Positions 1,736 through 34,359 of a stretch of DNA of 64,000 bases are shown piece by piece. The position numbers and the translations under genes are program-made. Location of the stretch: positions 57,660,001 through 57,724,000 of the forward strand of contig OX597822.1 in the NCBI GenBank assembly GCA_951406725.2, read 5' to 3'. The notes beneath the pieces were generated by a model. The model saw only the letters and a list, made by a program, of their open reading frames with translations, was not told the DNA's origin and made no database searches. The stretch's first letter is position 1. The number at the start of each line of letters is the position of its first letter. This stretch comes from Octopus vulgaris. Taxonomy: Eukaryota.

Positions 1736-1804
1736 GGTTCTTCTCCAGATTCTTATTGGTTGACTTCATGGTTACATGGGACTCGTGTGAAGAGCGAGAA
1801 AAGG
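1736..1804 (+). CDS. candidate 69-nt cassette exon of NRBP
   Basis: long pyrimidine tract, ttgag|GGTTCTTC...GAAAAGG|gtattt; open in phase 1: (G)FFSRFLLVDFMVTWDSCEEREK. Confidence 0.35.
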
Positions 1805-13756: not shown

Positions 13757-13810
13757 CACTGGTGACATCAGTCATGGTTTCCTGTGGTATTATCCATCTG
13801 TTCAGAACTG
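13757..13810 (+). CDS. candidate 54-nt cassette exon of NRBP (72 nt from upstream acceptor, start 13739)
   Basis: cttgcttttatttcag|CACTGG...AGAACTG|gtgggt; open in phase 1: (A)LVTSVMVSCGIIHLFRT. Confidence 0.35.
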
Positions 13811-20412: not shown

Positions 20413-21636
20413 TACATGAACCATTCAGTTACATCCTTGTCTTTTACATGCTGAGTTCATATCCCACCAGGATATCTGTTTTCATCTTTCCAGGCTTAAT
20501 AAATGATAATACATGGATCAGTCATGTATTGGATTTGAGATTAAACCTCTCCTCTATAAATCTATACAGCCTTGTGCCTGCCTATTTTCAAGATCTTTAT
20601 GTTATTGCTGTTTAACCCCAGATTAACTCTTACTGAGAAAACCTGTGATCAAAGACATAGTAGCCCTCTATTTATAGTGTATTGGATTACATTTTTGTAT
20701 TACTCTTTCTTTTCTCAATGGAATTTGACTTTCTTTGCAGGTCAAGTGACCTCATAGATGTTCTCTTCTTTGCTTGTAGAAATCCTTGTTATTTGGCAGT
20801 GGGGTGGGGATTACAGAATACAGTAAATCCTAGCCAGTATGTGACATGGTATTTAGGTACATTTCTGTATGTTTTGAGTATAAACCCTGCTTTGATAAAA
20901 TAATATGTGAGCTAACTGACCAGTAGAGCAGTCAGTTACTTGAACATTCAAGTAATCAATTGTACCATTCTTGCAGATTTGTTGCCATGTGCCTATGTTA
21001 AACATTATTATTACTATATCCATCATCATTATATGTATATTTGTATAAGTAGCACCAGCTAACAATATAGTTTATGGGGACAACACATTTTAACGCATTT
21101 ATTTTAATTTGATTCCTTTTCTTTATATTTATTTTGCTTCTTTTTTTTTTCTTTCCCTTTTTTTTTTTTTTTTTTCATTTGACAAGCTTTTCATTCAGCA
21201 AAATTTATAGCGATAAAATCCCCAAACAAATATTTTGGGACAACATCTGCAATTCTTCTTGTGTTTCTACATTCCCAAAACAACTGCACCACCACTACAT
21301 AATGTAATGTCAGTATGTAGCAGCATGATACTTTGCATGCCTGGATTGCCTTGTCATGTCTTCTCTACTATTATAACAATAATAATAATGCTTGGCTCAC
21401 TTCACTTTTAAGTTATTCTCTGTTTAATAGATTTTGATTTTAATTTCACGTGTATCCTCCTCATATATATATATATATATATGTATGTATGGTGTTGCTT
21501 TTATTTTTATTTTTGTTTGTTTATGTTTGTTTTTTATTTGTTTATTTGTAATTAAATATAAATACCAAAAAAAAAAAAAGTAAAATGAGCTTCAAGCTTG
21601 GCAGACCAAATGAACTCATTCTCTTTACCCCCACAG

Positions 21637-21657
21637 GATCTTTCTTCGAGAGAATGT
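21637..21657 (+). CDS. NRBP1: candidate 21-nt alternative microexon of NRBP
   Basis: ctcattctctttacccccacag|GATCTTTCTTCGAGAGAATGT|gtaagta; strong splice sites, 3n, open in phase 1: (G)SFFERM(F). Confidence 0.65.
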
Positions 21658-21995
21658 GTAAGTATGACCCCTTTTGTTAGGGAAATAAGGGGGTTGAATT
21701 TTGCAAAAGCAGAAACTGACAAAGAGAGAGAGAGTGTGAAAGTGCATTAAAACATTTAAAAAGAATGAGGGAGGAAAAAAGAAAGAAAATTTATATATGA
21801 AACCTGACTCTTTAACAAAGTAATATCAACATTGTTATCCCTTTTTCGCATTGGCTTCACCCAAAATACAAAGTCTTGGACCCGTTCTAGAACTGCTCTA
21901 AATGTTTTGGCACTACCAAAATGGAAACTACACTGTTTGCTTTTGTAGATGCTTCTACAAGACTTATAAACAAGCAAAATGATTACATTAGCTTA

Positions 21996-27249: not shown

Positions 27250-28893
27250 CTAAATGTACCATCTTCACCATCACTAACAGCAAACTCCATAACAACTATG
27301 GAATTTACACCTGCAATGCTGCGACGTCACCTTCAAAATAAGCGCAACTATGCCTCCCCTGGTCTCGATGGAGTTACATACCTGCTTCTCAAACGTGGCA
27401 GGCACTTCCTTTTACACCAGCTTTCTATTTTCTTCCAGTACTGTCTCAACAATGGTGCTACTCCGGAGCAGTGGAAAACTGCCAGTGTCATTCCTCTGTT
27501 CAAAAAGGGCGACCGCACATCACCTGTCAACTATCGCCCAGTCAGTCTCACTAGCTGTATTGCAAAACTGATGGAATCGTGTGTCAGAGAAACACTCTGG
27601 AACTTCTGGAGCTCTCACAGTCTCATCCGACCCTCACAATATGGATTTGTCCCTAACTCCAGCTGCAGTGACCAGCTTGTCGAGTTCCTTGAGGACATTA
27701 CTCAGATTACTGACAGTGGCTCATGGGTGGATGTTGTCTACCTTGACTTTGCTAAGGCTTTCAACTCTGTGCCACACAAAAGGCTTATGGTGAAACTCTC
27801 TGCAATGGGTGTGGGGGATGACCTTTTTAACTGGTTGAAATCCTTCATCCTCAGCCGAAAGGAGGTAGTCACAGTTCTAGGACAGCACTCTACACCATAT
27901 GAGATGTCATCGGGTGTACCACAGGGATCTGTCCTTGGTCCCTCTTGTTTGTGGCATACATTAACGACATAGATGCCAATTTAAAGAATGCCACAGTATT
28001 GAAATATGCAGACGACATCAAGCTGTACCTTGAAATCAAGAGGACAGATCCTGATGTCTACAACTCTTTCCTGCAATCAGACCTAGACACAATGCAGCAA
28101 TGGATCACAGACTGGCAACTGAAACTGGCTGTGGACAAGTGTACCACCATGCATTTTGGGAGAAAAAACCCTGCGTTCACATACTCCCTCCACAACACTG
28201 ATATCAAGAAATCCTCTTGTGAGCGTGACCTAGGCATCACTGTCAGCAGTGATTTGCGTTGGTCAAAGCATATCTCTAAGATTGTCAGGAAGGCCGAGGG
28301 TGTCTTGGCATCACTCAGCAGGTCTTTTGTTAGCCGCTCTCCAGCCATCTATTTAAAACTGTATACAGCTATGGTACGACCACACTTGGAATTCGCATCA
28401 TCAGTTTGGAACCCCTATCTTGCACAGAACATGGACCTCCTGGAATCTGTCCAGAGACGTGCAACCAAACGCATACCCTCCATCAAACACCTACCATATT
28501 CTGAGCGCCTTGTTTCCCTGGGCATGGATTCACTGAAGCTCCGGCGTTTGGCGACGGACTTGGTAAACACCCACAAAGTTATCAACCACCTCACCAACAA
28601 CAACACTGAACACCTTTTTGATCTCCATGTGTCTAACACACGTGGACATGCCTACAAAGTCAGAAAACAATACAGCTCCCATGACTTTCGGAAACATTTT
28701 TTCACGCTCAGAGTTGCTGAAGCATGGAATAAACTGCCTGCGTCAGTTGTTGACTGCCATGACACTGCATCTTTTAAGGCCCTCATGCTTTCCGAAATCC
28801 GCCGAAACTACACCTGATTATATATACACTTTAGATGAGTTGTAGTGCACCTGAGCACTGTACACAATTATTATTATTATTATTATTATTATT
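27250..28893 (+). mobile_element. 5'-truncated CR1-type LINE with RT domain, short 3' UTR and (ATT)n tail
   Basis: ORFs 27223..27972 and 27945..28817: SPGLDG, NYRPVSLTS, YLDFAKAF, GVPQGSVLGP, YADD (28005-28016), ERDLG, VRPHLEFASSVWNP, TRGH, WNKLP; one frameshift near 27942; (att)n 28866-28893; 5' boundary approximate. Confidence 0.95.
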
Positions 28894-32400: not shown

Positions 32401-34062
32401 TACAAATGTATCTGTGTGTGTATATGTATATACATGTACACATGCATGCTCATGTGCACACACACATATACACATGGCTGATTACAGAAGCATTCCATTT
32501 GTAGTTACAGTATTCTGTTATTATATAACTTTAAGTTTGGTGCTGCTTGACTGACTGACTTTTCCTCAGCCTTGGTCTACAAGGTTCCTACTTTCCATAG
32601 TGTCCTTCTAGTATTTAATTTCATACCACACAAACCTATGCTTGTTTATTTATAGTTGTTACATTTTGAGCCAGCATCACTAGGTGAAGAGGAGATAGAG
32701 AGTGAGAGAGAGGGGGGAGGGACCTGTGCAAGCTGAATGTGTGACTCGGTTTCAATTCGTGCTTCGGGCTGTTTTTATGCTTCTCTTTCATTGCTTAAAG
32801 CTTTGAGGAAAACCTCATGAACATCTCACATTCTCATGTCCTTTACTGGTATCAATCTGAAGTGTTTTAATTATGTAAGAAATCAATGCAATTTTGAAAG
32901 TGTCCTTTTTTTTTTTCCTTTTTGAATTCAGCGAACATAAGGTAAATAAATAGTCCATGGTGTACAAATTTTCTTTTTTCTTTTTATGTACACCTGTGAA
33001 AGTAACGAGTGTTTAGTGAATGTTTGAAGTAAACCAAAATGTGAAGTATTGTATTTGTGTTCTAAATCTAAATACAGCCAACATTTTCAAGAAGCTATTT
33101 CAGCTTTAATTTTGTAACTTTTGCTGTCAATCACTTCCCTCACTTCACACCACTCCCATTATATTTTTCAGTTCTGTTGATTAAAATTACAGCTAAATTA
33201 CTCTGAAAAGAATAAACATCCGTCAAGATGTCTATTTTATTTTGGTTTCCTGGCCTCCTATTTCTTTCTCTATAAAATTGTCTTCACATTAAAAGATCTT
33301 TTTATGTAACAAACACAGTGTTTTTGTGTCACCTTTTATTACAGGTTTGCATTCCAAAAATTTAATTAAAAACTAAGAGAGAAAAAGTAATGTTAATATT
33401 ACAAAGAAGAAATTCATTCTGAAGAATTATATTTATTTGTTTACTTATTTTAACGTCATGTTTCATTTGTAACAGCTGTTCCAGAGGAACAAAATATAGT
33501 GTCCTTTTACTAAATAATTTTTATTTTCCAGTAAAATATCAAATTGAAAGTTTCCTGTTGCTGCAAGCCATCTAGGAGAGAGGAGAGCTCTGTAATGCGC
33601 TTCCAAATACAGCTTTCCATTAAAAAATAATAATATGAGACTGCTTTTTAATGTTTAGCCGACCATCTTCCTAGTGCGTATGTGGAAAATGTACCCGTCT
33701 CCACCTTTTTTGCCATAGACTGTGACCAATACAGTTTTCTTAAAAAAGCAAACTAACCAAGTTAACTAAAGTTACAGCTAATTATATATGCTTACATCAT
33801 ACACATGCACACATAGATATGTATATGTATTTTACCTGGTTTGTACTTTGGACGGCATACATGTATAGCTATACAATATGTGCATGTGTTTTAATAATGC
33901 TGAAGTTACGTTGTGTTGTGTTTGTATGTGTATGCATATATATATATATATACACACACATACATACATACACATATATAAGATGTAATGTATGCTGCCG
34001 ACGCTATAAAAGTAATCCAATTTTGCTCAATCTACAGTCATGTTTCTTACTGTTTCTTTCAG

Positions 34063-34146
34063 TTGCTCCAGATGCGATTCACCACCATGTGAAAACCTAC
34101 AGAGAAGACTTGAAAAATATGCACTGCATAGCACCAGAATATGAAG
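34063..34146 (+). CDS. NRBP1: NRBP/Madm pseudokinase, first constitutive exon in window (activation segment to APE)
   Basis: tttctttcag|TTGCTCCA...TATGAAG|gtaac; 84 nt, phase 1-1; encodes (V)APDAIHHHVKTYREDLKNMHCIAPEYE, matching recalled human NRBP1 VAPDTINNHVKTCREEQKNLHFFAPEYG. Confidence 0.93.
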
Positions 34147-34359
34147 GTAACATTGATCCAGCAGCTTCAAATTTTTCCAGACCATTTTCTTATCTTCCTT
34201 CTAATGAAATTTGATAACGTTCCTGTTTTACTCCCAGGATGTTTGAATTAATATAGAGATTAGAGAATTAGAAGCAATTATATACCTTCATGGGTTTCAA
34301 ACATAAATTCTGCTGGGGTTAACTTTGCAGTTCTTTTGTTTTGGTTATCAATCAGTATG

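What the first reader, a model, noticed from the sequence alone, without database searches (positions are those of the whole stretch)
21637..21657. 21-nt microexon in the NRBP activation segment, resembling the vertebrate NRBP1/NRBP2 insert
Seen: pyrimidine tract plus CAG, 21 nt, then a consensus GTAAGT donor, in a stretch (about 21050-21980) with no recognisable transposon. In the phase-1 frame set by exon 34063 it reads (G)SFFERM(F)APD. Recalled knowledge: vertebrate NRBP1 has an 8-aa alternative insert VFHRIFAN and NRBP2 has VWHRIFSN right after IGS, the degenerate DFG position. FERMF vs FHRIF matches in pattern and position. Inference: an ancient, possibly neural, microexon shared by molluscs and vertebrates that gene predictors would miss. 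The first residue depends on the upstream exon, which is outside the window.
Basis: partly seen in the sequence, partly recalled or inferred. Interest (0 to 1): 0.8.

Follow-up and report, generated by a model that had tools for sequence, protein, structure and literature searches.

The report
Octopus NRBP activation-loop microexon
A real 21-base optional exon in the octopus gene for the signalling pseudokinase NRBP inserts a short peptide at the same spot where vertebrates have a similar, neuron-enriched optional exon; it likely tunes the protein's partner binding, and may be either an ancient shared exon or a repeated invention.

Summary
The exon is real. A transcript-type contig joins the upstream exon, these 21 nt and exon 34063 (1 of 4 runs laid). 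Nine RefSeq isoforms of two Octopus species already carry GSFFERMF, so it is not missed by annotation. It is the last of four phase-1 cassette exons in a 58-kb intron that splits the Val of the degenerate DFG (SVA). The recalled vertebrate insert is confirmed: VFHRIFAN from chimaera to mammals, and a related constitutive segment in NRBP2. The mouse 24-nt exon is classed as neural and not SRRM4-dependent. One clam isoform has an in-register look-alike. Deep homology is unproven. The match to vertebrates is weak (5 of 782 pseudo-exons score as well) and shifted by two codons. It appears in 1 of 46 other named mollusc proteins and 0 of 258 other invertebrate or unnamed proteins, and this intron gains unrelated exons repeatedly. 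Neural inclusion in octopus and function are untested. Odds: real exon 0.97; shared with bivalves 0.6; true homology with the vertebrate exon 0.35.

The parts
21637..21657 (+). 21-nt phase-1/phase-1 cassette microexon (exon D); replaces the junction Val by GSFFERMF
   Evidence: sequence; contig with both junctions; 9 RefSeq isoforms
21605..21636 (+). 3' splice region: AG-free zone, branch-point-like CTCAT at -22, pyrimidine tract, CAG; no UGC in the 120 nt upstream
21658..21663 (+). 5' splice site GTAAGT (intron side consensus, exon side weak)
1736..1804 (+). 69-nt phase-1 cassette exon B in the same intron (weak GAG acceptor)
   Evidence: RefSeq isoforms only, no junction seen in the 4 runs laid
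13757..13810 (+). 54-nt phase-1 cassette exon C in the same intron
   Evidence: junction to 34063 in a contig of run X2, depth 5
34063..34146 (+). Downstream constitutive NRBP exon: rest of the activation segment, with the Thr equivalent to NRBP1 Thr232 and the APE motif. The upstream constitutive exon (G000:C9:57635582-57635676) and 36-nt cassette exon A (G000:C9:57646245-57646280) lie 5' of the window

Best explanation
The 21 nt are an alternatively spliced, frame-keeping microexon of the octopus NRBP pseudokinase gene that replaces the Val of the degenerate DFG with GSFFERMF, likely adding a short amphipathic helix at the start of the activation segment that would tune, not switch, NRBP's contacts with WNK kinase or its dimer partner, likely in neurons. 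Shown: splicing on both sides, skipping in other runs, frame, position, identical peptide in two Octopus species, and the same insertion point as the vertebrate NRBP1 exon. Inferred: helix, partner tuning, neural bias. On origin I favour an old molluscan exon (shared with a clam, about 0.6) in an insertion hotspot. Its likeness to the vertebrate exon is somewhat more likely convergent (0.65) than inherited (0.35).
For: Junction contig in X2, skip form in X8, X11 and X24. Peptide identical in O. bimaculoides and O. sinensis models. WNK3 DLG aligns to SVA, whose Val codon the intron splits. The R-x-F inserts have helical hydrophobic moments of 1.07-1.82 (6 peptides), against 0.25-0.80 for 4 hand-picked unrelated inserts at the site. 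The insertion point is 11 residues before Thr232 in mammalian numbering, and octopus keeps this Thr. WNK1 phosphorylates Thr232, and the NRBP1 pseudokinase domain is modelled to homodimerise and bind the WNK1 kinase domain, with co-IP support (PMC12266122, passages). Mouse counterpart is neural. Clam insert scores 19 in register; 2 of 782 intron and 15 of 5076 regional pseudo-exons reach that score. Hotspot: unrelated inserts in sharks and rays, Babylonia, Lymnaea, ticks, and three more octopus exons.
Against: No tissue labels, so neural bias in octopus is untested. No UGC upstream. The exon was seen in 1 of 4 runs; in the one raw-read run none of the 7 reads listed with 5' loose ends formed a row for it. 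The AlphaFold2 model has pLDDT of about 26-31 over residues 191-220 and shows no helix there. NRBP2, which always carries the insert, activates WNK4 like NRBP1, and Thr232Ala does not impair rescue, so the effect may be small or on another partner. Only 1 of 46 other named mollusc proteins has the motif; the listed Mercenaria, Sepia and Argonauta models lack it. Many hotspot inserts are gene-model predictions and may be artefacts.
Confidence: 0.5

Rival explanations
1. Deep homology: one neural microexon arose in this intron before the protostome-deuterostome split and survives as 21 nt (octopus), 27 nt (clam) and 24 nt (jawed vertebrates, fixed in NRBP2), with shifted splice sites and losses elsewhere.
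For: Same intron position and phase. Lengths differ by multiples of 3 within 6 nt, the rule one preprint uses to call exons co-derived. Shared F/W/L-x-R-[ILMV]-F core. Octopus vs NRBP1 scores 18, reached by 5 of 782 and 45 of 5076 pseudo-exons; 0 of 5076 match both the vertebrate and clam peptides as well. By hand, 10 of 15 nt are identical to the mouse exon in the protein register. The vertebrate exon is invariant from chimaera to mammals.
Against: The core starts at residue 4 in molluscs and residue 2 in vertebrates, and ends at the exon end in octopus but 3 codons before it in vertebrates, so both splice sites must have moved. With four cassette exons to choose from, a 0.6-1.7% match becomes about 3-7%. 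Among strong-acceptor pseudo-exons 3 of 147 reach the score. Both exons begin with a pyrimidine run plus AG, which by itself encodes F..R. Clam vs vertebrate scores only 13-15 (48 of 782). No such insert in 258 other invertebrate or unnamed proteins, hemichordates, annelids and arthropods among them. Type I convergence is common for neural exons. The motif was defined after seeing the peptides.
Confidence: 0.35
2. A lineage-restricted, near-neutral exonisation: the 58-kb intron offers many cryptic frame-keeping exons, the catalytically dead activation segment tolerates inserts, and this is one of several tolerated ones with no selected role.
For: Four cassette exons in one intron, used in many combinations. 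Many unrelated inserts in other species. Not seen in the listed Sepia (2) or Argonauta (1) models.
Against: The peptide is identical in two Octopus species, whereas exon A differs by one residue. In run X2 the longest upstream path runs through this exon. In-register likeness to the clam exon. Exon A is itself conserved to cuttlefish, so cassettes here can be old.
Confidence: 0.15
3. The insert works as a short docking motif for a CCT domain (NRBP's own, WNK's or SPAK/OSR1's) rather than as a structural tuner of the kinase fold.
For: The pathway is wired by Arg-aromatic motifs binding CCT domains. An Arg and a Phe are the constant residues of the inserts. The clam insert reads R-x-F-x-V, a variant CCT motif recalled from memory and not from a call.
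Against: The motifs seen in the papers are RFxV, RWTC and KxxxxFxITSV. Octopus RMFA and vertebrate RIFA fit none of them. CCT ligands bind as strands, while these inserts mostly look helical.
Confidence: 0.07

Closest known systems
Vertebrate NRBP1 24-nt microexon (mouse VastDB event MmuEX0032302) and the fixed equivalent in NRBP2
   Same: Same gene family, same intron position and phase, frame-keeping, aromatic-x-R-hydrophobic-F core, alternative in NRBP1.
   Different: 21 vs 24 nt; core shifted by two codons; replaces the junction Val at both ends (G...F) rather than keeping V...V; octopus has three more cassettes in the intron; neural bias shown only for mouse.
Ruditapes philippinarum NRBP isoform X1 insert (P0163)
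   Same: Same site; S, E, R, F identical in register from the 5' end.
   Different: 27 nt by inference from the protein; a single RefSeq model; its DNA was not examined.
Bilaterian-ancestral neural microexons of APBB1/2/3 and MADD (bioRxiv 10.64898/2026.09.05.749416)
   Same: Tiny in-frame insert in a signalling protein, present in distant phyla at one position.
   Different: Those pass a test needing neural exons in vertebrates, insects and both outgroup lineages; no insect counterpart was seen here and length and register are not conserved.
Type I convergent neural microexons (fly spg vs DOCK3/4; syd vs SPAG9/MAPK8IP3; same preprint)
   Same: Independent small exons in the same protein region of orthologues.
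   Different: Here the peptides also resemble each other, which convergence of position alone does not predict.

Membership tests
Alternative microexon (3-27 nt cassette) | Length 3-27 nt between AG and GT | tested here: met
   21 nt, CAG/GTAAGT
Alternative microexon (3-27 nt cassette) | Spliced to flanking exons in transcripts | tested here: met
   X2 contig with both junctions (the tool marks the run as RNA by guess); RefSeq isoforms
Alternative microexon (3-27 nt cassette) | Skipped in other transcripts; frame kept | tested here: met
   Skip form in X8, X11, X24; phase 1-1
Neural microexon | Neural-enriched inclusion | not testable with these tools
   Run tissue labels are coded; only the mouse counterpart is classed neural
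eMIC (SRRM3/4, Srrm234)-dependent microexon | UGC close to the 3' splice site | tested here: not met
   No TGC in 120 nt upstream; feature list from PMC8797185, an enrichment rather than an absolute rule
eMIC (SRRM3/4, Srrm234)-dependent microexon | Long AG exclusion zone, strong branch point | tested here: inconclusive
   32 nt without AG; CTCAT at -22, no CTRAY
eMIC (SRRM3/4, Srrm234)-dependent microexon | Loss of inclusion without eMIC | not testable with these tools
   Mouse counterpart sits in the 'Neural' control group, not among eMIC targets
Exon orthologue of vertebrate NRBP1 microexon | Same intron position and phase | tested here: met
   Both split the Val after IGS in phase 1
Exon orthologue of vertebrate NRBP1 microexon | Length difference a multiple of 3, at most 6 nt | tested here: met
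   21 vs 24 (clam 27 inferred); criterion
Exon orthologue of vertebrate NRBP1 microexon | Sequence similarity beyond chance | tested here: inconclusive
   5 of 782, 45 of 5076, 3 of 147 pseudo-exons score as well; four exons to choose from
Exon orthologue of vertebrate NRBP1 microexon | Similarity in register with the exon ends | tested here: not met
   Best alignment offset by 2 residues
Exon orthologue of vertebrate NRBP1 microexon | Presence in intervening lineages | tested here: inconclusive
   1 of 46 other named mollusc and 0 of 258 other invertebrate or unnamed proteins; these are mostly cluster representatives and gene models, so absence is weak
NRBP pseudokinase (host gene) | WNK-related kinase domain lacking HRD and DFG | tested here: met
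   Best solved relatives are WNK3/WNK1; HRD reads HGN, DLG reads SVA; Pfam kinase hits; homologues named NRBP
NRBP pseudokinase (host gene) | C-terminal CCT-like domain | tested here: inconclusive
   PF12202 at E 6e-4, 20.3 bits, below the 22.4 cut-off

The most novel reading that the evidence does not exclude
A third bilaterian-ancestral neural microexon, beside APBB and MADD: an R-x-F helix spliced into the degenerate DFG of NRBP for some 600-700 million years, hard-wired in vertebrate NRBP2, giving neurons their own NRBP-WNK (chloride and volume control) regulator without SRRM4. Octopus has expanded the site into a four-exon combinatorial cassette.
Probability: 0.3. Interest if true: 0.72.

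Novelty: new member of a known kind. Interest (0 to 1): 0.45.

Why it matters
The NRBP-WNK passages I read treat the 535-residue skip form of NRBP1, and no paper found discusses the insert. Yet it is invariant from chimaera to mammals, neural in mouse, constitutive in NRBP2, and mirrored in octopus and a clam. Whether inherited or reinvented, a recurring R-x-F insert at the dead DFG points to a regulatory surface of the pseudokinase. It gives a simple test (+/- exon isoforms in WNK assays) of how a pseudokinase controls WNK and why NRBP1 and NRBP2 differ. If homologous, it would add to only two confidently bilaterian-ancestral neural exons in the 20-species survey read here.

Tried and rejected
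Run search listed no holder on record as RNA; this is not evidence either way. Only 34000-34220 was laid, with 4 of 24 listed runs, so inclusion levels and tissue were not measured. Two pattern scans of metagenome contigs for insert-bearing NRBP transcripts found 0. AlphaFold2 of the +exon isoform is uninformative at the insert; the skip-form model had not finished; no fold search or complex prediction was run. Supplement searches for NRBP gave nothing in PMC12626424, PMC7935315 (files 13-19 not searched), PMC12868881 and PMC12626420 (file 13 not searched). Earlier scan findings: none. Rejected: chance splice-site look-alike (junction seen); 'missed by predictors' (in RefSeq); canonical SRRM4 target (no UGC); canonical RFxV ligand (spacing wrong). 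Ensembl-derived teleost inserts (e.g. Oreochromis, which scores 24 against the NRBP1 insert) were not used as evidence because they may be projection artefacts.

Full report
Observation. Window 21637-21657 is 21 nt between a pyrimidine tract with CAG and a GTAAGT donor. The host gene is NRBP: a downstream exon finds O. sinensis and O. bimaculoides proteins at 100% and 99%, and tblastn maps the gene from about 70 kb upstream of the window to 52.6 kb within it. The upstream constitutive exon lies at G000:C9:57635582-57635676 and ends in phase 1; the intron to exon 34063 is 58,386 nt. Inclusion turns IGS-V-APD into IGS-GSFFERMF-APD. By a crude splice matrix the exon ranks 2nd of 785 frame-keeping, stop-free 15-30-nt candidates in the intron. 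The 40-nt exon with flanks is unique in the genome at up to 2 mismatches.

Splicing. Four of 24 listed runs were laid on 34000-34220. In X2 (marked RNA by guess) the loose end before 34063 reads the last 9 nt of the upstream exon followed by exactly these 21 nt. By its coordinates it belongs to the 908-nt contig of depth 29. X2 also holds an exon C junction (depth 5), a 31-nt branch starting one base earlier (depth 19.5) and an intron-retaining piece (depth 7). X8 and X11 show only the skip form. In X24, 16 raw reads were laid: 4 had skip-form ends, 3 a mixed exon-A-like end, and no row showed the microexon (rows need 3 reads). Contig depth is not an inclusion level, and tissues are not given. 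Independently, 9 of 37 cephalopod proteins fetched carry the peptide: O. bimaculoides X1, X3, X4, X5, X9 and O. sinensis X4, X5, X7, X10 (15 of 23 members of the main cluster were listed). The three listed O. vulgaris-named models, two Sepia models and one Argonauta model lack it.

Context. The intron carries four symmetric phase-1 cassettes: A (36 nt, upstream of the window, with a cuttlefish counterpart), B (69 nt, 1736-1804), C (54 nt, 13757-13810) and D, the finding. RefSeq models combine them in many ways. Alignment to WNK3 puts DLG on SVA, so all four insert in the middle residue of the degenerate DFG. The insertion point is 11 residues before Thr232 of 535-residue mammalian NRBP1, and octopus keeps that Thr.

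Relatives. The vertebrate recall is right: VFHRIFANV occurs in 27 proteins, plus 2 ray proteins with an extra exon before it, from chimaera to mammals; 17 NRBP2-type proteins carry VWHRLFVNV or VWHRVFANA; one teleost NRBP1 model has a diverged version. That is 47 of 172 vertebrate proteins, from a search aimed at the insert. In table S2 of PMC8797185 the mouse 24-nt Nrbp1 exon is in group 'Neural', a control group kept apart from eMIC targets. PMC7821500 puts the same coordinates in neuronal cluster N4. Among other named molluscs 1 of 46 proteins has the motif (Ruditapes X1); among other invertebrate or unnamed proteins 0 of 258 (groups assigned by hand from the listings; 3 and 30 of these lack the region). 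Unrelated inserts at the same site occur in sharks and rays, Babylonia, Lymnaea, Biomphalaria, a tick, an ant and several teleost models. Some are probably prediction artefacts.

How alike? Best ungapped BLOSUM62 score, octopus vs NRBP1: 18 at offset 2. It is reached by 5 of 782 intron pseudo-exons (13 of 782 if any of three vertebrate peptides is allowed), 45 of 5076 regional ones, and 3 of 147 with strong acceptors. Octopus vs clam: 19 in register, reached by 2 of 782 and 15 of 5076. None of 5076 matches both as well. Clam vs vertebrates: 15, reached by 48 of 782. Counted by hand, 10 of 15 nt agree with the mouse exon in the protein register; this is not independent of the peptide match. Both exons open with a pyrimidine run and AG, a composition that yields F..R, and octopus exon B also scores 17 against exon D. 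So the octopus-clam link is fairly good, and the mollusc-vertebrate link is suggestive but needs both splice sites to have moved.

Mechanism. NRBP1 is a pseudokinase that activates the WNK-SPAK/OSR1 pathway. Its pseudokinase domain is modelled to homodimerise and to bind the WNK1 kinase domain, with co-IP support, and WNK1 phosphorylates its T-loop at Thr232 (PMC12266122, passages). The six R-x-F inserts have higher helical hydrophobic moments (1.07-1.82) than four hand-picked unrelated inserts (0.25-0.80). I infer a short amphipathic helix at the start of the activation segment that alters partner contacts. Against a large effect on WNK: NRBP2, which always has the insert, activates WNK4 like NRBP1, and Thr232Ala rescues normally. 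The AlphaFold2 model is unresolved there (pLDDT about 26-31). No UGC lies within 120 nt upstream, in line with regulation by something other than Srrm234.

What is known. A 20-species survey including O. bimaculoides finds only two confidently bilaterian-ancestral neural exons (APBB, MADD) and frequent same-site convergence (bioRxiv 10.64898/2026.09.05.749416; section 10 and passages). Its main text never names NRBP; its supplements were closed and may list this exon. PMC12254500 places the NRBP1/2 duplication early in vertebrates and has no occurrence of 'exon', 'isoform' or 'insertion' (passages). Searches for NRBP1 with microexon, with pseudokinase/isoform/exon, with alternative splicing/exon inclusion, and with the event id or peptide (listings only) returned no paper on this insert; subscription journals are not covered. 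Also read as passages: PMC12266109 and bioRxiv 10.64898/2026.04.15.718729.

Verdict. A real, already-annotated alternative microexon of a known kind. What appears undescribed is the parallel with the neural vertebrate exon and the four-exon cassette at the dead DFG. Odds: real 0.97; neural in octopus about 0.6; shared with bivalves about 0.6; homologous to the vertebrate exon about 0.35. Interest 0.45, or 0.72 if deep homology and a shared function hold.

Noticed in passing
window 1736-1804, 13757-13810, 21637-21657 and L010:6245-6280: Four frame-keeping cassette exons share one intron at the degenerate DFG and are combined in RefSeq isoforms, adding up to 48 residues in the models fetched; exon A is conserved to cuttlefish.
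   Followed up: partly
L012:423-444: A second small NRBP cassette exon (GHSKKKQ in Octopus, Argonauta and Sepia proteins) reads 22 nt here, with a run of ten A; a homopolymer assembly error or an allele is likely. The three O. vulgaris-named models lack it.
   Followed up: partly
window 1736-1756: The start of exon B encodes a peptide resembling exon D (score 17); chance from a pyrimidine-rich start or an old duplication.
   Followed up: no
P0325, P0437, P0439, P0445: Sharks and rays have their own extra 27-nt exon in the same intron, used alone or before the conserved 24-nt exon.
   Followed up: no
window 20780-20803: Best-scoring frame-keeping AG..GT candidate in the intron (24 nt) is in no fetched isoform; probably a pseudo-exon.
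   Followed up: no
window 27439-27808: Open frame resembling a LINE reverse-transcriptase fragment (likeness recalled, not searched).
   Followed up: no
P0090: A database protein labelled as from a tick virus reads like tick NRBP over the insert region, probably host contamination of that record.
   Followed up: no
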